This document shows, one piece after another, positions 1,280 to 45,684 of a stretch of DNA of 57,378 nucleotides. The notes beneath the pieces are model-generated. The model worked only from the letters and a program-made list of their open reading frames with translations, did not search any database and was not told the DNA's origin. Source of the DNA: an uncultured Gammaproteobacteria bacterium (GTDB lineage Bacteria; Patescibacteriota; Patescibacteriia; UBA9934; CAZDDW01). Each line of letters starts with the position of its first letter. The stretch's first letter is position 1. The translations under genes were made by a program, and so were the position numbers. The stretch spans positions 1 to 57,378 of the forward strand of contig CAZDDW010000001.1 in the NCBI GenBank assembly GCA_964504365.1, in the 5' to 3' direction.

Positions 1280-1930
1280 TTTCCTGGTGACAGACCAGGT
1301 GGATCTGCTCGATCTATATGCTAGAGCAAAAGCGCCACCAAGGTTGTCTATGATCTGAGGTGGTGGTGGATACGCGGCAATTGCCTGCTGCGTTGAAGCT
1401 GGAATAGTAGAGGCCGGCAAGTGCCCGGACCCAAAAGAGTGTTATCAAGGGTCCTCACGAGGGATTCAGTTCTCAAAAGAGAGCAGCACTCACCATATCT
1501 GCTTGGCAAGCAGGTCTGTGGGCATTCACGGATGAGGACCAATGAGCAAGTGAAACTAGCAGTGCTTTGTAGAGAATCCCCGCCACCGGACTTTAGTGCC
1601 GGGGTTGCTGCGTTTAACGGCGCGTAGTGAAGGGGTACAACCCAACGTCCAGCATTGTGTTGGACAAAACTGTCAGCCCTCGCCTTGCCAGATTCAGTTC
1701 TGGAAGAAAAGGAGGGTGAGGAGGGTGGCATCTCCTTGATAAAAAACATGGCCAAAAAAAGCTCGTTCAAGGCATGTTAGGGAATCCTGTTTTGCGGGAT
1801 CAGCCACAGGAAGGTATAAAGGCCGGACAAGGAGTACGGCCTGGAGCCTAGGCAATGGGTATATTGTGTAGGATATGAACGGGGCATGTTCGCTTCCGTA
1901 ATATTCTTCCCCTGTTGCGACAAATCCTGG
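1280..1930 (+). ncRNA. large structured non-coding RNA, copy 1 (family unidentified)
   Basis: No credible CDS; 72/75 nt identical block with 9262-9336; compensatory changes against copies 2 and 3; ends approximate. Confidence 0.75.
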
Positions 1931-1973: not shown

Positions 1974-4343
1974 ATGGGTCGCAAGAGCAGACGTCAGATC
2001 GTCTACCTACCGCAGGACAGCGGTAACCCCTTGTCGGCCCGGGATCTGGGTGGCAAGGGTGCGGGACTAGTGGCCATGGTGCGCGAAGGTGTGCCTGTCC
2101 CGCCGGTGTTCACGGTGCGTACCACTGTGGCCCGGGCCTACGCAGAGAACGAACGCCTCCCGGATCGCATCGGGTGGCAGATGAAACGCGGAATCCGGAG
2201 CCTGGAGCGGGCGACCGGACGTTTCTTCGGAAGCGTTCGCAAGCCCCTCCTGGTTTCGGTCCGCAGCGGAGCCCAGGTTTCCATGCCTGGGATGATGGAT
2301 ACGGTTCTCAACCTCGGCCTGAACCCGGACACAGTCCAGGGTTTGATCAAGCTGACCAATGACGAGCGTTTCGCCTACGACTGCTACCGGCGGTTCCTGG
2401 CGCAGTTCGCCACGGTCGTGCTCGGTATGGAGACCGAGAAGTTCGACAAGGCTTTGGCTGAGGCACTGCAGCGGAATAAGGTTGACGACCAGCGTCAGCT
2501 TTCGGCCGCGTCTCAGCTGGCCATGTGTGGTCACTACCGTTCGCTGATCGAGGAGTACCTCGGCGAGGACATGATCGACGACGCTTACGAACAGTTGGTC
2601 CTGGCCCTGGTCGCGGTCTGCAAGAGCTGGAACAGTGACCGCGCCCAGACTTACCGCCGCGAGCATCAGCTCCCGGACTGGTGGGGCACGGCAGTCAACG
2701 TGCAGACCATGGTCTTCGGCAATGCCGGGGACGATTCCTGTACTGGTGTGGTCTTCAGCCGCAACGTGTCCACGGGCGAGCCCGGGCTCTACGGTGAGTT
2801 CCTGGTCAACGCTCAGGGCGAAGACGTGGTTGACGGCAAGCACAACGCGCTGCCGATTTCGGACATGGCCGACTGGAACGAGCGGCTCTACCAGGAGCTG
2901 CAGCGACAAGTGGCCAAGCAGGAGCGTCGGTTGAACGACGTGGCCGACGTGGAGTTCACCGTGCAGAAAGGTCGGCTCTGGATCCTGCAGTCCCGCACGG
3001 CCAAGCGTACACCGCTGGCTGCGGTGACCATCGCTTACGACATGGTTCAGGAAGGTACCTGGACCAAGACTGAAGCTCTGGCCTCGGTTGGTTCGGAACA
3101 GTTGGAGGCTCTCTCTCGCCCCCGCATTGATCCGGATCATCTGGCCGAGCACGTTGAGGACGGTGTCAAGGTCTATCGTGGTCTGCCAGTTTCCTTCGGG
3201 GGAGTGGCTGGTCGAGTAGTGACCAGTTCGCAGGCTGCAGTCAAAGCAGCCAAGAACAAGACCGAGCCGGTCATTCTGGTTCTTCCGGATACCACACCCA
3301 AGGATCTGGCTGGCATGATCGCGGCTGACGCTATCGTCACCATGACCGGTGGCACCAGTTGTCACGCGGCTGTGGTCGCGCGCGAGCTGAACAAGCCGTG
3401 CGTGGTCGGGGTCAAGGATCTGATGGTCCTGGATCATCAGATCCTGTCCATGGATGGCAGTCTGGGTGTGGTTTTCGGTGTTTCGGTCCAGATGATCGAG
3501 CCGGCCAAGACCAAGGCCACGGCCGTGTTCAAGAGCTGGGTCCATCACGCTGAGCGCAAGCTGCAGCTGGTCAACCCGGTCGCACGGCTGAACTTCGACC
3601 TGGTCACCGGCGACAGTCTGAACGTAAGCACAGCAATAAACGACTTCTACCTCGCAGGTGCCATGGAAGTGGCAGCTCGAGGCACGGCACTTCACCACGC
3701 GGCCGTGAGTCTGAAACAGCGTGTTCACCATCAGGTGGCCGAGCACATCGCCATGTACCTGGTCGTTGCCGTGTCCGGTGAGCTGCGGCACCTCTTCGAC
3801 AAGGGTCTTGACGGATACCGCTCGGTTCAGGAAAAGGCCGAACAGCTGGCCAACAAGTTCGGTGTACATCGTAGTGGCAGCAACCGGCCCGGTGCGCAGA
3901 TGGACGCGGTCAGTCGGCTGAAGGGGTTGTCTCCCCAAGACCATGTCCAGTACCTACAGCTGGCCGTCGAAGTCTTCGATAACCCCGATGTTCACTGGAG
4001 AGGCTCCAACATCGGTGGTCAGAAGTGGGCCCGTATTGCCGAGGCCGCGCTGCACTATCTGACCGGCAAACTGAACGCGACAGCCTTTGCTGACCACGCC
4101 TTCGACCTGAAGCACAACGGCGGCCTGGTCTTCAACAAGCACAGTATGGTCGCGGCTTATCCCAACACCGTTTACCGGCAGCTGGATGCCAAGAAGATGG
4201 CCCGTGGTGTGCACGAGATGATCCGTGCGCTCGAGAACACTGGTCATCGCACCTTCTCGGAGCAGGTGCTGACTGTTAGCCATCGCGGCGAGCGTATGGG
4301 GATCTGGCAGGCTGAGGCCCGCCGATTCGGCATCGCCGCTTGA
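1974..4343 (+). CDS. PPDK-like dikinase (ATP-grasp + phospho-His domain) with non-PPDK C-terminal domain
   Basis: LGGKGAGL, PLLVSVRSGAQVSMPGMMDTVLNLGLN, NAQGEDVV, GGTSCHAAVVARE motifs; SD GGAGGT; C-terminal ~280 aa is not a PEP/pyruvate TIM barrel. Confidence 0.85.
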   Translation: MGRKSRRQIVYLPQDSGNPLSARDLGGKGAGLVAMVREGVPVPPVFTVRTTVARAYAENERLPDRIGWQMKRGIRSLERATGRFFGSVRKPLLVSVRSGAQVSMPGMMDTVLNLGLNPDTVQGLIKLTNDERFAYDCYRRFLAQFATVVLGMETEKFDKALAEALQRNKVDDQRQLSAASQLAMCGHYRSLIEEYLGEDMIDDAYEQLVLALVAVCKSWNSDRAQTYRREHQLPDWWGTAVNVQTMVFGNAGDDSCTGVVFSRNVSTGEPGLYGEFLVNAQGEDVVDGKHNALPISDMADWNERLYQELQRQVAKQERRLNDVADVEFTVQKGRLWILQSRTAKRTPLAAVTIAYDMVQEGTWTKTEALASVGSEQLEALSRPRIDPDHLAEHVEDGVKVYRGLPVSFGGVAGRVVTSSQAAVKAAKNKTEPVILVLPDTTPKDLAGMIAADAIVTMTGGTSCHAAVVARELNKPCVVGVKDLMVLDHQILSMDGSLGVVFGVSVQMIEPAKTKATAVFKSWVHHAERKLQLVNPVARLNFDLVTGDSLNVSTAINDFYLAGAMEVAARGTALHHAAVSLKQRVHHQVAEHIAMYLVVAVSGELRHLFDKGLDGYRSVQEKAEQLANKFGVHRSGSNRPGAQMDAVSRLKGLSPQDHVQYLQLAVEVFDNPDVHWRGSNIGGQKWARIAEAALHYLTGKLNATAFADHAFDLKHNGGLVFNKHSMVAAYPNTVYRQLDAKKMARGVHEMIRALENTGHRTFSEQVLTVSHRGERMGIWQAEARRFGIAA

Positions 4344-4517
4344 ACGATACAACATCAGTACATTCACGGAGGTGAAACACGAGTTCCAGTGGGCGCGACC
4401 GACATCGCGCTCACTGGACTCCTTAAATGAGCTTCCCGGACGTTAGTGTTCCGGGAAGTTGATCGAGGAGAATTGATAAAGCGGCCAAATCGCCGCACGA
4501 TATACGGAGGAAGAACG

Positions 4518-5003
4518 ATGAGAAGCATTCCGCATAGCGAGCGTACGGGTGTCGCGATACAGATCGGTCCACACACGGTTCACGCCGGTGGTGGTAGCTT
4601 CATGCAGCCCGGTGACGTCAACGGTTACGACGTGGTCGTTCCGCTGGCCGGCCGTCTGCCCGACGGTGCCGAGCTGACCGACGACCAGGAGCGCTTCGAG
4701 CTGGAGCTCGAGGACTTCGGTGGTGTACCCAAGGACTGGGAGCAGATTCTGCGCGAGCAGGTCATCCCTCTCCTGGAGCAGGGCAAGAGCCTGCTGGCAT
4801 TCTGTGCCTGGGGGCAGGGGCGGACCGGGACTTTCCTGGCCTCGCTCATGGCCATCCTCGAGCCGAATGTCGACGATCCCGTCCTGGAGCTGCGCGAGCG
4901 GTACACCATGGAGGCGGTCGAGACCCAGACCCAGGCCCGCGCGGTCTTCGCCATCAAGGGTATCAAGGAGTTGCCCGAGGTGCACCAGCGCCTGCGGAAG
5001 TAG
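4518..5003 (+). CDS. protein-tyrosine/dual-specificity phosphatase family protein
   Basis: CX5R loop FCAWGQGRTG, downstream VETQTQ (ETxxQ-type); SD GGAGGA before ATG 4518. Confidence 0.85.
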   Translation: MRSIPHSERTGVAIQIGPHTVHAGGGSFMQPGDVNGYDVVVPLAGRLPDGAELTDDQERFELELEDFGGVPKDWEQILREQVIPLLEQGKSLLAFCAWGQGRTGTFLASLMAILEPNVDDPVLELRERYTMEAVETQTQARAVFAIKGIKELPEVHQRLRK

Positions 5004-5037: not shown

Positions 5038-5487
5038 ATGAGCAGTAAGTTCGAGATGATCGGACCCGGAAACCAGAACTATACGGTTTTGGCTGGAAGC
5101 AGTCGTGGCCGTGTTGGGTTCTGGATATCGGATCTTGATGGTCAGGCTCGTATTCGGGTCGAGTTCAGGAAAGGTGTTATCGGTAAGATCGAGGGCATAC
5201 TGCATTGGACTTGTTCTGGTCCTAGTGATTTTGTGGCTTACACCCGAAATCAGGGTGCAACAGAGCAGGCCTTGAAAGATGCGCTTACGGCTCTAGGTAT
5301 CAAGGAGATGGGGTTCGGTGATACGATGCCAGCCGGGCTGAGCCTGAACTTCGAAGCCCCACACTGGGCCATCGGCTTGATCATGCCCAAGTACGCGGGG
5401 TTGACTCGAGTACAAGTCGAGGCTAGGCAATCCTTGCCAGCCGTTCGTGTGCTGGCAGCCAGGATTCGCAACGCCCTGGTCACATAG
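5038..5487 (+). CDS. hypothetical protein, member of island paralog family
   Basis: Shares YTVLA...VG...RIRVE pattern with 5735 and 7949 products; stop TAG lies in the repeat tagttctttggaag. Confidence 0.75.
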   Translation: MSSKFEMIGPGNQNYTVLAGSSRGRVGFWISDLDGQARIRVEFRKGVIGKIEGILHWTCSGPSDFVAYTRNQGATEQALKDALTALGIKEMGFGDTMPAGLSLNFEAPHWAIGLIMPKYAGLTRVQVEARQSLPAVRVLAARIRNALVT

Positions 5488-5556
5488 TTCTTTGGAAGCG
5501 TTTTTGCGGCGCAATTCTCGCGCCGCACTTCAACATCCCGAGTACAGACTCGGGAT

Positions 5557-5671
5557 CCCACCAGAGTTTCGGAGAAAAAGTAGAGAGTAGAAAGTTGAAA
5601 GTAGAAAGGAATAAATTTGTCCCTCTCTACTATCTACCATCTACTTTCTACTTCTCGGAGTCCCTGGTGGG
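5557..5671 (+). repeat. CCAC-family hairpin copy H2, long form
   Basis: cccaccagagtttcggag...ctcggagtccctggtggg with heptad insert. Confidence 0.9.
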
Positions 5672-5734: not shown

Positions 5735-6376
5735 ATGGAAGCGCTGAAACACGAGGAGGGCATCATGCCCAGCTACGCCTACGACGCCACGAGCAAGCGC
5801 CGGGACATCGCCAACGTGCCCGGCACCGAGCGCACCCACGAGTACCAGGTTCTGGCCATCACGCCCAAGGCCGTCGTGGCCCTGCGACACGACGTCGGTC
5901 GCAGCTGCTGGCGTATCCGCGTCGAGCCGCTGTCCGAGGCGGCCGCCGAGGAGATGCGCCCGTACTTCCCGAAGATGGTCGGTTGGAGTACCGACAGTGG
6001 CTGGAAGCATCCGGACCACCAGCCTCGGTTCAGCATCACCGCCCGGGACGCCGACACCAGGGACCGTGACAAGAAGCTGGTCCTGGCCCTCGAGGTCGCC
6101 CAGTCCGAGGGTCGGATCGTGCGTCGCTTCCGCGAGCACCTGCTCGAGCGGAAGACCGAAGCGCGTCCCGAGGGTGTGAACTGCACCCGGTGCGCGAACA
6201 CGGCCTGCGTGTTCAACGGCACGCCCACGATGATGCTCCCCGGCGAGCACGACCCGACCGGGTCCAAGCTGCGGCACAACACCTGCGGTGACGCGGACAT
6301 GGACGACGTCATCCTGAGCTGGCTGCGCCGCGACGCCGACACCGAGCTCGAGGCCGCCAAGGCCGCCGAGGCCTAG
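5735..6376 (+). CDS. hypothetical protein, paralog family, with C-terminal Cys cluster
   Basis: YQVLAITPKAVVALR...RIRVE; CTRCANTAC...HNTC possible metal site; true start may be ATG ~5765 after GGAGG. Confidence 0.75.
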   Translation: MEALKHEEGIMPSYAYDATSKRRDIANVPGTERTHEYQVLAITPKAVVALRHDVGRSCWRIRVEPLSEAAAEEMRPYFPKMVGWSTDSGWKHPDHQPRFSITARDADTRDRDKKLVLALEVAQSEGRIVRRFREHLLERKTEARPEGVNCTRCANTACVFNGTPTMMLPGEHDPTGSKLRHNTCGDADMDDVILSWLRRDADTELEAAKAAEA

Positions 6377-6476
6377 GGTAGCGCGCTAGACCAGTACAGC
6401 ACTGATCAACAAGTTCTTTTCGTTAACTTGCCTCGAGCACGTCGAGGCCTGCCCGGAACTATTCGTAGTTCCGGGA

Positions 6477-6591
6477 CCCACCAGAGTTTCTGAGAAAAGT
6501 AGAGAGTAGAAAGTTGAAGGTAGAAAGAAACAAATTTTGTCCCTTTCCACTATCTACCATCTACTTTCTACCCCTCAGAGTCCCTGGTGGG
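6477..6591 (+). repeat. CCAC-family hairpin copy H3, long form
   Basis: cccaccagagtttctgag...ctcagagtccctggtggg with heptad insert. Confidence 0.9.
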
Positions 6592-6634
6592 TCAATGGTT
6601 GGCCCAATTCCACGAAAGACATAAGGAGGTCATC

Positions 6635-6865: not shown

Positions 6866-7119
6866 AAAATGAAGGCTATAAAGGCCAAACCGCAGCTTGT
6901 TGCGGATAGCTAAACGTTAACCCTACAACCCATCAGCTCTTTTCGCCCAGAAGAAGCCACAACTGTTTCAAGTTCACCCACTCGACCACCGCACACCAAA
7001 AACACAAAAAACAAAGACGAAGTGCGATTGGTTGAGGAAGTAGAGCTGTCAGCACGAAATTGGACGGACTCTGCGGACGGGGTATACCGCGAGCGTCGAA
7101 GTGACCCAAAATCGACGTG

Positions 7120-7810
7120 CTCATAGGGGGTAGTGCCCCCTGGGTCAAGCCATCAAAGGTTGCACTGACCTGTGATGGTGGTTCGTAGTGCGGGAATTGC
7201 CTCCTGCGCTCGGGCTAAAGACCAAAGGAGTCAAAGCGGCCGTTCAAGTGAACGGTATATGTTAACACCGCTTGGCGAGCGGTTCCGTTGGTAATAACGG
7301 ACAAGGACCAACTGGTTGTGAAATCAGGCGGTAGCTAGTCAGAAATCAGCCTGGGGTAACTCAGGTTCAGGGCCGAGTCGATTATGTTTCTTAACATAAT
7401 AGCGGCGTCAACCCTGATTAAATGTTCTGTGCCGAAGTGGCCGGTCGGGTTTGTATGTGGATTAGTGTAAATAACATAATGTTGTTAATTTACATCCCAC
7501 CTTTGCAAACTCAAGGGGTTGCACCCTTGCAAGCGACAGCTAAAGAGATTGACTAGAGATTGTTTGAGGAATCAATTCGGAAGGGATCAGCCTCAGGAGG
7601 GTGAAAGGTTCGAGCGCGAGTTCGGGCCGGAGCCTAGGCAGCGGGTAGATTGAGCTCATAATCGACAGGTCTGCTTTCATACCTAGTGGTGGATGGCAGG
7701 CATTGGGTACGGGGGTCGAGTGAAGGCTGATGGTTTTCGGACCTGAAGCTGAAGAACTGCACGTCAGAGAAAAGCCCAAGGTTGTGAGTCCCTACTGCGA
7801 CAGATCCTGA
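7120..7810 (+). ncRNA. large structured non-coding RNA, copy 2 (most diverged)
   Basis: Same ordered blocks: aagccatc..gatggtgg, gcttggcgagc, ccgtt-ggtaat-aacgg, gggatcagcctcaggagggt, agcctaggcagcggg, ctgcgacagatcctga. Confidence 0.7.
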
Positions 7811-7887: not shown

Positions 7888-7931
7888 CTTCCACCAGAGT
7901 TTCTGATTTCGATCGGAGTTCCTGGTGGAAG
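7888..7931 (+). repeat. CCAC-family hairpin copy H4, short form
   Basis: cttccaccagagtttctga-tttcga-tcggagttcctggtggaag. Confidence 0.9.
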
Positions 7932-7948
7932 CAAGGAGGAGAGACAAC

Positions 7949-8731
7949 ATGAAATCGTTCCAGATGTACGGTGCATATGGCAGCGATTACTTCGTTGTCG
8001 CGTGCACAAAGCTGGGAAAAATTGGTTGGAAAGACTCAGGTAAGGGCTATCAACACGTTGAGGTGCAGGGTCACGAAGAGGATGTCCTGGACTTTGATTT
8101 CGACAAGCTGTATGAGAAGTTGCCTGGCTGGAAGATCAACGAACTGTCCAACGCCTGGGTCTCGACCATGGTCCCGAAAGGACCTGAGCTCACAAAAGCA
8201 CTGGTTGAAGGTCTTCGTGCCTTGGGCTTAGAAGGGTTGGAGGTAAATCCAGAGGCTGGTCCGTGGTTCGGAGGAGTGGTCAGGAAGGCTTTCGGCCAAG
8301 GCCCATTCGACATGGAGGATGTGTCTGGTCTCAAGTACACAGTGGTTGTTGCCACACCTTGGGCCAGGGTCGGACTGAGAACCGATCAGGATCATCAAGT
8401 TGTCCGTATCGAGATGGATGACGGGCCAATGGCTTACGCAGCTGACAGAGGCTTCACTCCAAACTGGGAGTTTTTTAAAGGATCTGGACAACGACCTATC
8501 TGCTTCACAGCTACGGCCTTCAGTAAAGAGCAGGCCGAACAGTTGTTGACCAGCGCATTTCGGGCAATCGAAGCTGAATTCGATCTGCTTAACCCTGACT
8601 TGACCGAGACCAGGGTCAATCCGGAGATCAGTGGTTGGATCATGGAGTTGATCAAGGCTGAGTCCAGGATTGAGTTGAGAGCCATGCTCGATCACGCCCG
8701 CAAGTTAGCTGCTCGCATCAAAGTTGCATAG
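7949..8731 (+). CDS. hypothetical protein with two tandem copies of the island paralog domain
   Basis: SD AAGGAGG; halves FQMYG..DYFVVA..GKIG and FDMED..KYTVVVATPWARVG; both end in (V/L)NPE..(P/G)W. Confidence 0.8.
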   Translation: MKSFQMYGAYGSDYFVVACTKLGKIGWKDSGKGYQHVEVQGHEEDVLDFDFDKLYEKLPGWKINELSNAWVSTMVPKGPELTKALVEGLRALGLEGLEVNPEAGPWFGGVVRKAFGQGPFDMEDVSGLKYTVVVATPWARVGLRTDQDHQVVRIEMDDGPMAYAADRGFTPNWEFFKGSGQRPICFTATAFSKEQAEQLLTSAFRAIEAEFDLLNPDLTETRVNPEISGWIMELIKAESRIELRAMLDHARKLAARIKVA

Positions 8732-8770: not shown

Positions 8771-8882
8771 CTTCCACCAGAGTTTCTGAGAAAAGTAGAG
8801 AGTAGAAAGTTGAAAGTAGAAAGAAACAAATTTAGTTCCTTTCTACCATCTACTTTCTACCCCTCGGAATCCCTGGTGGAAG
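8771..8882 (+). repeat. CCAC-family hairpin copy H5, long form lacking one heptad
   Basis: cttccaccag...ctggtggaag; right arm 7 nt shorter than H1-H3. Confidence 0.9.
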
Positions 8883-45608: not shown

Positions 45609-45684
45609 GGGTCGGTAGCTCAACGGTTAGAGCGCCGAGCTTATACCTCGGTGGTTGGAGGTTCGATTCCTCCCCGACCTACCA
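45609..45684 (+). tRNA. tRNA-Ile(UAU)
   Basis: Anticodon arm ccgag-ctTATac-ctcgg; canonical D and T arms; A73; encoded CCA. Confidence 0.92.

What the first reader, a model, noticed from the sequence alone, without database searches (positions are those of the whole stretch)
1974..4343. PPDK chassis with a foreign acceptor domain: probable novel dikinase
The N-terminal ~500 aa carry the PPDK nucleotide-binding and phospho-His swivel domains. The PEP/pyruvate TIM barrel is replaced by a ~280-aa helical region (DFYL...YLVVAVSGELRH...GGQKWARIA...FADHAFDLKHNGGLVFNK). Established precedent: rifampin phosphotransferase and glucan-water dikinase reuse these two domains with another substrate domain. 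The His loop reads GGTSCH rather than GGMTSH, so the PPDK regulatory Thr position is altered. Substrate unknown.
Basis: partly seen in the sequence, partly recalled or inferred. Interest (0 to 1): 0.7.

Follow-up and report, generated by a model that had tools for sequence, protein, structure and literature searches.

The report
Barrel-less PPDK-type dikinase with new domain
This gene keeps the ATP-driven, swinging-histidine front end of pyruvate phosphate dikinase but replaces the pyruvate-binding barrel with a conserved helical domain of no known fold, and it belongs to a widespread, uncharacterised three-gene kinase/phosphatase/small-protein module of uncultured bacteria and phages whose target is unknown.

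Summary
ORF 1974..4343 (+) encodes 789 aa. Residues 9-527 are a PPDK-type ATP-grasp plus phospho-His swivel domain, with all the nucleotide-site residues I checked and the catalytic His464 intact. Residues ~530-789 are not a TIM barrel. AlphaFold2 (pLDDT 92) gives a 12-helix domain with one small beta-hairpin. It has no Pfam match, no PDB sequence match and no PDB fold match. It has about ten invariant polar or aromatic residues (Y559, Y595, E603, W685, D707, D711, H714, N715, K722).

The domain defines a large family of 834 clusters at 50% identity. Most members are fused to the same PPDK front end. They occur in Obscuribacterales/Melainabacteria, many Patescibacteria and some viral contigs. 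In Vibrio, Stenotrophomonas, Rhodobacter and Rhizobium siphophages the domain is a separate gene, 2-3.5 kb downstream of a "PPDK" that the literature calls a metabolic gene.

The fused gene is nearly always followed by a CX5R Cys-phosphatase and a small orphan "RIRVE" protein. Here these lie at 4446..5003 and at 5038/5735/7925. The module sits in a GC-rich island and is absent from 40 relatives of the host genome.

Best reading: an ATP-dependent dikinase with a new acceptor domain, part of a mobile phosphoryl-transfer module. The substrate is unresolved. The "altered regulatory Thr" is a conservative Thr-to-Ser change and is not a family trait.

The parts
1974..4343 (+). Dikinase gene, 789 aa: PPDK-type ATP-grasp + phospho-His swivel + new C-terminal domain
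   Evidence: AF2 full length pLDDT 92.8, pTM 0.84; Foldseek top hits are PPDKs at E 1e-46, TMq 0.5-0.6
1998..3128 (+). ATP-grasp nucleotide-binding domain (aa ~9-385). K28, R97, the SMPGMMD loop, D325, E327, Q339 and R341 align to C. symbiosum PPDK K22, R92, D321, E323, Q335 and R337
   Evidence: PF01326 E 5.5e-40; residue-level alignment to 1KBL; K28, R97, E327, Q339 and R341 invariant in all 65 relatives, D325 is D or E
3159..3488 (+). Phospho-His swivel (mobile) domain, aa ~396-505; catalytic His464 (codon 3363-3365) in the loop GGTSCH
   Evidence: PF00391 E 2.3e-21; H464 aligned to PPDK His455 and invariant
3561..4340 (+). New C-terminal domain (aa ~530-789), helical with one beta-hairpin; invariant Y559, Y595, E603, W685, D707, D711, H714, N715, K722, L737
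   Evidence: no Pfam; phrog_20946, function unknown, E 1.5e-15; no PDB sequence or fold match; only 4 uncharacterised phage proteins in BFVD; 834 clusters in the representative library; invariant residues
4446..5003 (+). Partner 1: CX5R Cys-phosphatase of the DSP/PTP fold (D90, C120, R126; 'FCAWGQGRTG')
   Evidence: weak Pfam PTP-SAK/Tc-R-P, 21 bits against cut-off 27; 38% identical to the gene after the dikinase in L004; family HMM E 6.5e-55; same position in 38 of 56 fused-type loci
5735..6376 (+). Partner 2: best-preserved 'RIRVE' orphan protein of the island (GTERTHEY, RIRVEP, GWKHP, RFS)
   Evidence: family HMM E 5.7e-45; motif conservation across 87 clusters
5038..5487 (+). Diverged RIRVE paralogue
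   Evidence: HMM E 1.4e-6; weak match to the L004 neighbour
7925..8731 (+). Diverged RIRVE paralogue
   Evidence: HMM E 4.8e-47, aligned over residues 8-269

Best explanation
The gene encodes an ATP-dependent dikinase of the PEP-utilising (PPDK) superfamily with a new acceptor module. By homology, the ATP-grasp domain uses ATP to phosphorylate His464 on the swivel domain, with AMP released and the gamma-phosphate passed to Pi or water. By inference, the swivel domain then carries the phosphoryl group to a substrate held in a conserved polar pocket of the new C-terminal domain (E603/R605/H606, W685, D707/D711/H714/N715, K722), which stands where PPDK has its PEP/pyruvate barrel. The enzyme works within a mobile three-gene module. 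A CX5R Cys-phosphatase encoded immediately downstream is inferred to remove the same phosphate, or to resolve a phosphorylated intermediate. A small orphan 'RIRVE' protein is the third, obligatory partner, either as substrate/adaptor or as a further catalytic part. In one group of siphophages the same parts are split into separate genes. The acceptor is not pyruvate; its identity (protein, nucleotide or other small molecule, or nucleic acid) is unresolved.
For: Front end intact: PF01326 and PF00391, PDB PPDK E 1e-107 with catalytic residues aligned, K28/R97/E327/Q339/R341/H464 invariant in 65 relatives, structural match to PPDK. Barrel absent and replaced: TIGR01828 aligns only to position 526/865, AF2 gives a confident helical domain, and there is no Pfam, PDB sequence or PDB fold match. 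The domain is under strong selection: 834 clusters, and about ten invariant polar or aromatic residues shared by fused and stand-alone forms. Rosetta-stone link: in 39 phage records the stand-alone domain lies 2-3.5 kb from a barrel-less PPDK-like gene in one cassette with two PTP phosphatases. Module conservation: phosphatase in 38 and RIRVE in 37 of 56 fused-type loci, same strand and directly downstream, with PTP::RIRVE fusions in L036, L037 and P0211, and also on viral contigs. Precedents: VadK (Rv1127c), a barrel-less PPDK derivative, autophosphorylates its His (PMC13400623). RPH and HpeI, dikinases with other substrates, appear as lower structural hits.
Against: No biochemical data exist for any family member. 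No coordinates were available to check that His464 can reach the conserved pocket. The C-domain could be a docking or regulatory domain rather than a catalytic acceptor site. The phosphatase is missing from about a third of loci; some of these are cut by contig ends, but in L005, L008, L014, L016, L023, L025 and others RIRVE directly follows the dikinase. So the phosphatase is not strictly obligatory. The window's own phosphatase scores below Pfam's gathering cut-off.
Confidence: 0.7

Rival explanations
1. Protein phospho-switch. The dikinase phosphorylates the RIRVE protein, for example on the near-invariant Thr/Tyr of its N-terminal GTEGTGxY loop, and the Cys-phosphatase reverses it. This would make an ATP-driven kinase/phosphatase/substrate triad, possibly regulating an effector in a conflict system.
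For: RIRVE is the most constant neighbour and is fused to the phosphatase in L036, L037 and P0211. T9, T12 and Y15 of the loop are 95-97% conserved. The partner is a protein-phosphatase-type DSP/PTP fold. One RIRVE is fused to a TIR domain in an HNH/HIT neighbourhood. From established knowledge, phenylphosphate synthase and HpeHI (PMC12167813) show that this enzyme class can phosphorylate phenolic OH. VadK is proposed to act on proteins (PMC13400623).
Against: RIRVE has many other invariant polar residues (R29, R37, R39, E41, W61, K62, Q63, R71, S73), which fits an enzyme or ligand binder better than a passive substrate. No RIRVE was detected in the two phage cassettes examined. The window's three copies are partly degenerate. 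No PADLOC match. The TIR fusion is a single case without a dikinase nearby.
Confidence: 0.2
2. Nucleic-acid or nucleotide modification. The C-domain binds DNA, RNA or a (deoxy)nucleotide, the dikinase phosphorylates it, for example as an activating step of a phage DNA hypermodification, and the PTP-fold enzyme acts as a polynucleotide or nucleotide phosphatase.
For: In phages the cassette lies beside the DNA polymerase, with DNA ligase or ParB-nuclease genes elsewhere in the fetched 16-18 kb stretches. Stenotrophomonas phage DLP3, which carries the cassette, has DNA resistant to all 15 restriction enzymes tested, modification unidentified (PMC7326821). The C-domain is basic: pI 9.5 here, family median 8.5. 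From established knowledge, some PTP-fold enzymes are RNA 5'-phosphatases.
Against: Cellular loci carry only the three genes in unrelated neighbourhoods, with no hydroxymethylase or other base-modification genes. No match to aGPT-Pplase or any nucleic-acid-binding family in Pfam. DLP3 also has a glycosyltransferase that could explain its resistance. The structured RNAs beside the gene in this window are not found next to the module in 62 other loci.
Confidence: 0.15
3. VadK-like regulatory histidine kinase. The enzyme only autophosphorylates and signals through protein contacts, and the C-domain is a docking or oligomerisation module without catalytic function.
For: The NCBIfam model of the VadK-type truncated PPDK (NF004531) scores 455.8 bits against a cut-off of 456. 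VadK autophosphorylates and binds metabolic enzymes.
Against: Invariant Glu/Asp/His/Asn/Lys clusters, preserved also in stand-alone phage copies, are typical of a catalytic or ligand site. The tight linkage to a phosphatase implies a phosphorylated product that needs removal.
Confidence: 0.1
4. It is a genuine or degenerate PPDK/PEP synthase, that is, an auxiliary metabolic gene, as the phage literature annotates its relatives.
For: Phage homologues are annotated as PPDK.
Against: No PEP/pyruvate barrel by sequence or predicted fold. TIGR01828 is far below cut-off. The published structural comparison itself covers only residues 1-527.
Confidence: 0.02

Closest known systems
Pyruvate, phosphate dikinase (PPDK, EC 2.7.9.1; C. 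symbiosum 1KBL/1DIK; TIGR01828)
   Same: ATP-grasp nucleotide domain, phospho-His swivel domain, domain order, catalytic His and nucleotide-site residues. About 40% identity over residues 15-486; best structural match.
   Different: The whole PEP/pyruvate TIM barrel (~340 aa) is absent and replaced by an unrelated ~260-aa helical domain, so it cannot be a pyruvate/PEP enzyme.
VadK / Rv1127c-type truncated PPDK (NF004531; PMC13400623)
   Same: Barrel-less PPDK derivative with a conserved autophosphorylating His; the model scores 455.8 against a cut-off of 456.
   Different: VadK ends after the swivel domain. This protein has a further conserved domain and a phosphatase/RIRVE operon, and it occurs in different taxa (CPR, Melainabacteria, phages rather than actinomycetes).
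Rifampin phosphotransferase, glucan-water dikinase, phenylphosphate synthase/HpeHI (dikinases with swapped substrate modules)
   Same: The same principle: ATP-grasp plus swivel His combined with a non-pyruvate substrate module. GWD is likewise paired in vivo with DSP-type glucan phosphatases (SEX4/LSF2; established knowledge).
   Different: No sequence or fold relation between their substrate domains and this C-domain. RPH matches only the swivel domain (38.6 bits against cut-off 999). Domain order differs from RPH.
Phage 'PPDK' cassettes (Vibrio SIO-2/VHS1-like phages, Stenotrophomonas Delepquintavirus, Rhodobacter RcZahn, Rhizobium RHph; phrog_18609 + phrog_20946)
   Same: Homologous kinase front end (35-44% identity), a homologous C-domain protein (hhalign 98.6%) and homologous CX5R phosphatases in one cassette.
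   Different: Split rather than fused. The phage kinase has its own unrelated ~190-aa tail. There are two phosphatases, and no RIRVE protein was detected.

Membership tests
PPDK (TIGR01828 / EC 2.7.9.1) | N-terminal ATP-grasp nucleotide-binding domain (PF01326) with K22/R92/E323/Q335/R337 equivalents | tested here: met
   E 5.5e-40; residues aligned and invariant
PPDK (TIGR01828 / EC 2.7.9.1) | Central swivel domain with catalytic His (PF00391) | tested here: met
   E 2.3e-21; H464 = His455 of 1KBL
PPDK (TIGR01828 / EC 2.7.9.1) | C-terminal PEP/pyruvate-binding TIM barrel (PF02896) | tested here: not met
   No Pfam hit at E<=10; TIGR01828 alignment stops at 526/865; AF2 shows a helical domain; no barrel among Foldseek hits
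PPDK (TIGR01828 / EC 2.7.9.1) | Full-length equivalog score at or above the curated cut-off (843 bits) | tested here: not met
   517.5 bits
VadK-type truncated PPDK (NF004531) | Model score at or above 456 bits and a two-domain architecture ending after the swivel domain | tested here: inconclusive
   455.8 bits, 0.2 below cut-off; but the architecture has an extra 260-aa domain
Rifampin phosphotransferase (NF041857) | Full-length match including the rifampin-binding domain | tested here: not met
   38.6 bits against cut-off 999, swivel domain only
Unnamed fused dikinase::C-domain family (phrog_20946-type domain) | C-domain with invariant Y..E.RH, GGxxW, DxxFDLxHNxGxxFxK motifs | tested here: met
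   phrog_20946 E 1.5e-15; 834 relatives; invariant columns
Unnamed fused dikinase::C-domain family (phrog_20946-type domain) | Downstream CX5R phosphatase and RIRVE protein on the same strand | tested here: met
   Window 4446..5003 and 5038/5735/7925; 38 and 37 of 56 fused-type loci
DSP/PTP Cys-phosphatase (neighbour gene 4446..5003) | CX5R(S/T) P-loop with an upstream general-acid Asp; Pfam PTP-SAK/Tc-R-P at or above 27 bits | tested here: inconclusive
   Motifs D90, C120 and R126 are present. The window protein scores 21 bits, below cut-off. Phage homologues linked by the family HMM score 33-34 bits, above cut-off
Known anti-phage defence systems (PADLOC-DB 2.0) | Any component matching a defence-system model | tested here: not met
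   No significant hit for the dikinase, phosphatase, RIRVE proteins or phage cassette proteins

The most novel reading that the evidence does not exclude
The dikinase, Cys-phosphatase and RIRVE protein form a previously unrecognised mobile ATP-driven phosphoryl-transfer system. It is built on two orphan folds, and its acceptor belongs to a class no PPDK-family enzyme is known to use, either a protein (RIRVE Thr/Tyr loop) or a nucleic acid. It would be used in phage-host or inter-element conflict, which would explain its spread through phages, GC-foreign islands of ultra-small bacteria and Melainabacteria.
Probability: 0.25. Interest if true: 0.85.

Novelty: new variant of a known kind. Interest (0 to 1): 0.62.

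Why it matters
The PPDK chassis is a classic example of swivelling-domain catalysis, and only a handful of alternative acceptor modules are known: rifampin, glucan, phenols and the prodigiosin precursor. This one is a large, widely distributed and entirely uncharacterised family with a new fold and a fixed phosphatase partner. Its phage members are routinely published as "PPDK auxiliary metabolic genes" said to boost host carbon metabolism (for example PMC12038007). That interpretation cannot be right without the pyruvate-binding domain. Identifying the acceptor would correct it. It would also add a new reaction, or a new regulatory or conflict system, to phage and CPR biology, and give function to three orphan families at once.

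Tried and rejected
(1) Degenerate TIM barrel: rejected by the AF2 secondary structure and by Foldseek.

(2) Remote homology of the C-domain to a known family. I tried Pfam on the domain and on 40 members individually, an HMM profile against PDB sequences, and Foldseek against PDB and BFVD. Only uncharacterised phage homologues came up. No aGPT-Pplase, HEPN, HPt or HNH signal.

(3) Known defence system: PADLOC negative.

(4) Other domain partners of the C-domain as functional hints: Pfam on atypical architectures (P0144, P0147, P0148, and the 1005-aa protein of a relative genome) gave nothing useful.

(5) Structured RNA as a conserved partner, a lead from earlier notes. The window has three copies of a ~300-nt core, but nhmmer, blastn and a covariance model found none in 62 other module-bearing loci. 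The model rests on only three sequences, so distant homologues could be missed.

(6) Phage PPDK tail as a cryptic C-domain: hhalign probability 0.1%.

(7) A DNA-hypermodification paper on 'DLP3' (PMC13326640) turned out to concern a different, Acinetobacter phage.

Full report
**Observation**

The window has an ATG-initiated ORF at 1974..4343 (+) of 789 aa. The long antisense ORF 2067..3944 is the usual by-product of 61% GC.

Pfam finds PPDK_N (PF01326, E 5.5e-40) and the PEP-utilising mobile domain (PF00391, E 2.3e-21, residues 431-498), and nothing else. The PPDK equivalog TIGR01828 aligns model positions 3-526 of 865 and scores 517 bits against a cut-off of 843. Solved PPDKs match at E ~1e-107 over residues 15-486.

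In that alignment the nucleotide-site residues of C. symbiosum PPDK and the catalytic His455 correspond as follows:

- K22 to K28
- R92 to R97
- D321/E323 to D325/E327
- Q335/R337 to Q339/R341
- His455 to H464

K28, R97, E327, Q339, R341 and H464 are invariant in 65 relatives, and D325 is D or E. The front end is therefore a functional-looking dikinase engine.

The loop GGTSCH aligns to GGMTSH, so the regulatory or catalytic Thr position is Ser here. In the family it is Thr in 54 of 65 and Ser in 8 of 65. I treat this as a conservative substitution, not a feature.

**The C-terminal region**

Residues 510-789 have no Pfam match even at E<=10. None of 40 family members scanned individually matches anything meaningful. 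A profile of the domain finds no PDB sequence.

AlphaFold2 with a 65-sequence alignment gives a very confident full-length model (pLDDT 92.8, pTM 0.84). The domain alone, with 40 sequences, gives pLDDT 91.8 and pTM 0.87. The model shows a linker helix (514-529), then about twelve helices with one small beta-hairpin around 712-727. This is not a (beta/alpha)8 barrel.

Foldseek of the domain against 350,542 PDB chains gives nothing (best E 0.34, TM <=0.25). Against BFVD it finds only four unnamed phage proteins of 326-478 aa (E 1.5e-5 to 2e-4, TMq 0.54-0.59). Foldseek of the whole model returns PPDKs (E 1e-46, TMq 0.5-0.6, as expected if two thirds of the chain match), then PEP synthase, rifampin phosphotransferase and HpeI.

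**Family**

An exhaustive HMMER search of 1.84 billion cluster representatives with the domain alone finds 834 proteins at E<=1e-3 and 155 at E<=1e-10. Of the 152 sequences held (the query plus the best hits), 112 also carry the PPDK front end, typically as 700-830-aa proteins with the domain at the C-terminus.

Invariant columns in the domain are Y559, Y595, E603, W685, D707, H714, K722 and L737. Nearly invariant ones are R605/H606 (ELRH), G681/G682, D711 and N715. The same residues are kept when stand-alone relatives are added and in the phage protein RcZahn gp10 (hhalign 98.6%). A cluster of conserved Glu, Asp, His, Asn and Lys points to a catalytic or ligand site.

**Rosetta stone in phages**

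tblastn against 50,697 phage records finds the front end in 57 records (Vibrio, Stenotrophomonas, Rhizobium, Rhodobacter and others), never covering the C-domain. The C-domain alone finds 39 of these same genomes, 2-3.5 kb downstream of the kinase gene.

In RcZahn and Summit the order is as follows:

1. 'PPDK' (645-735 aa)
2. two or three small genes
3. PTP phosphatase
4. C-domain protein (~340-357 aa)
5. second PTP phosphatase
6. further small genes, then DNA polymerase

The ~190-aa tail of the phage kinase is unrelated to the C-domain. The published analysis of one such phage calls the gene a PPDK auxiliary metabolic gene, although its own superposition covers only residues 1-527 (PMC12038007).

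**Operon partners**

A scan of one genome per GTDB species with a C-domain peptide pattern gave 54 loci. About half are Obscuribacterales/Melainabacteria. Many are Patescibacteria (Saccharibacteria, Magasanik-, Yanofsky-, Nomura-, Morani-, Zambryski- and Parcubacteria). A few are Chloroflexota, Proteobacteria or others. The single pattern makes this a biased sample.

Neighbour clustering and six-frame HMM searches cover 56 fused-type loci: these 54, L004 and the window. They show a ~190-aa CX5R phosphatase directly downstream on the same strand in 38. They show a small orphan protein in 37, with the motifs MaGTEGTgxY, RiRVEP and GWKQPGdxgQxRFS ('RIRVE'). Several loci that lack one partner are cut by contig ends.

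Phosphatase and RIRVE are fused in L036, L037 and P0211. Three IMG/VR viral contigs carry the same fused module.

In the window the phosphatase is 4446..5003 (D90, C120, R126; 38% identical to the L004 neighbour). The RIRVE paralogues are 5735..6376 (well preserved), 5038..5487 and 7925..8731 (diverged).

RIRVE has 87 clusters, all 'hypothetical'. One member is fused to a TIR domain next to an HNH-like nuclease and a HIT gene, with no dikinase on that 4.3-kb contig. PADLOC has no match for any component.

**Genomic setting**

The window is the start of contig 1 of a 1.07-Mb, 98.9%-complete genome. Its housekeeping genes and its T4SS-pilin, DUF4012 and DUF11 genes look Patescibacteria-like (an inference).

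The first ~13 kb are 53-61% GC against ~44% elsewhere. None of 40 relatives, including two genomes of the same genus, has the full gene. They show only swivel-only or C-domain-only matches. In other CPR loci the module is likewise GC-richer than its flanks. The gene is therefore accessory and horizontally acquired.

**Mechanism**

- **Shown by homology:** an ATP-grasp plus phospho-His engine with all the catalytic residues I checked. The precedent that barrel-less derivatives still autophosphorylate comes from VadK (PMC13400623).
- **Inferred:** the C-domain is the acceptor site, and the phosphatase acts on the product. These rest on the domain's position in place of the barrel, its invariant polar residues, the fused/split pattern and the fixed gene neighbourhood.
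- **Unresolved:** the acceptor.

I rank the options as follows:

1. A generic new-acceptor dikinase within a three-part module (0.7 for the general statement).
2. Within it, RIRVE as a protein substrate (about 0.2).
3. A nucleic-acid or nucleotide target (about 0.15). It is supported only by the polymerase adjacency in phages, the basic pI and the unexplained restriction resistance of Stenotrophomonas phage DLP3 DNA (PMC7326821).
4. A VadK-like signalling kinase with a non-catalytic C-domain (about 0.1).
5. A real PPDK, which is excluded for practical purposes.

**Leads from earlier notes**

Earlier notes of this scan describe the same module in other genomes and structured RNAs in this island. 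I treated them as leads only.

- I re-derived the module and its distribution independently.
- I confirmed three RNA copies in the window.
- I found no such RNA beside the module in 62 other loci, so an RNA partnership is not supported beyond this genome.

**Verdict**

This is a new variant of a known enzyme kind and a member of a large, unnamed and unstudied family. It is of real but not singular interest, because the family is widespread and the function is still open.

Noticed in passing
relatives P0010, P0020, P0021, P0025, P0037, P0091, P0094, P0030, P0009 (not in the window): Longer family members (900-1030 aa) carry a 150-250-aa low-complexity tail after the C-domain. It has recurring short motifs: DxSGSM (vWA-MIDAS-like), G(T/V)GKS (Walker-A-like; P0091 hits Pfam AAA at 41 bits) and HExxH. 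The tail is too short for complete AAA+, vWA or zincin domains. Unexplained.
   Followed up: partly
window 1300-1600, 7070-7369, 9076-9375 (+), and hairpins at ~690-812, 5551-5671, 6468-6593, 8774-8879: Three copies of a ~300-nt conserved non-coding core, and four ~120-nt palindromic hairpins, punctuate the island between genes. There is no credible Rfam match (one chance-level miRNA hit at 29 bits against a cut-off of 96). A covariance model built from the three copies finds them at 213-314 bits but finds nothing in 62 other module-bearing loci.
   Followed up: partly
L066 (same-genus genome G001, contig C30, 488-9340, minus strand): Six tandem genes (344-632 aa) each end in a PEP-utilising swivel domain (E 1e-24 to 1e-26) behind unrelated N-terminal regions, two of them with HTH domains. 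This is an unexplained paralogue array of phospho-His carrier proteins in a ~1.1-Mb genome.
   Followed up: partly
L067:2292-5306 (+), L068:4785-5972 (-), L069:1903-3165 (-) in relatives of the host genome: C-domain-like regions (HMM E 1e-22 to 1e-29) occur in proteins of 396-1005 aa with no detectable ATP-grasp or swivel domain and no Pfam match. The domain therefore also exists in other, unknown architectures in Patescibacteria.
   Followed up: partly
L064:574-1395 (protein P0189): A RIRVE domain is fused to a TIR domain, flanked by an HNH-like nuclease fragment and a HIT-family gene. This hints that RIRVE can be wired to an immune-type effector. It is a single case on a 4.3-kb contig.
   Followed up: partly
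phage records (e.g. L001:8777-9544; Stenotrophomonas DLP3 gp141; phrog_17568): The second phosphatase of the phage cassette is annotated 'thymidylate synthase' in PHROGs and in some GenBank records. By Pfam it is a DSP/PTP phosphatase (PTP-SAK/Tc-R-P, 33-34 bits). This is probably a propagated mis-annotation.
   Followed up: yes
window 45609-45684 (+): ARAGORN calls a tRNA-Ile with a genomically encoded UAU anticodon.
   Followed up: no
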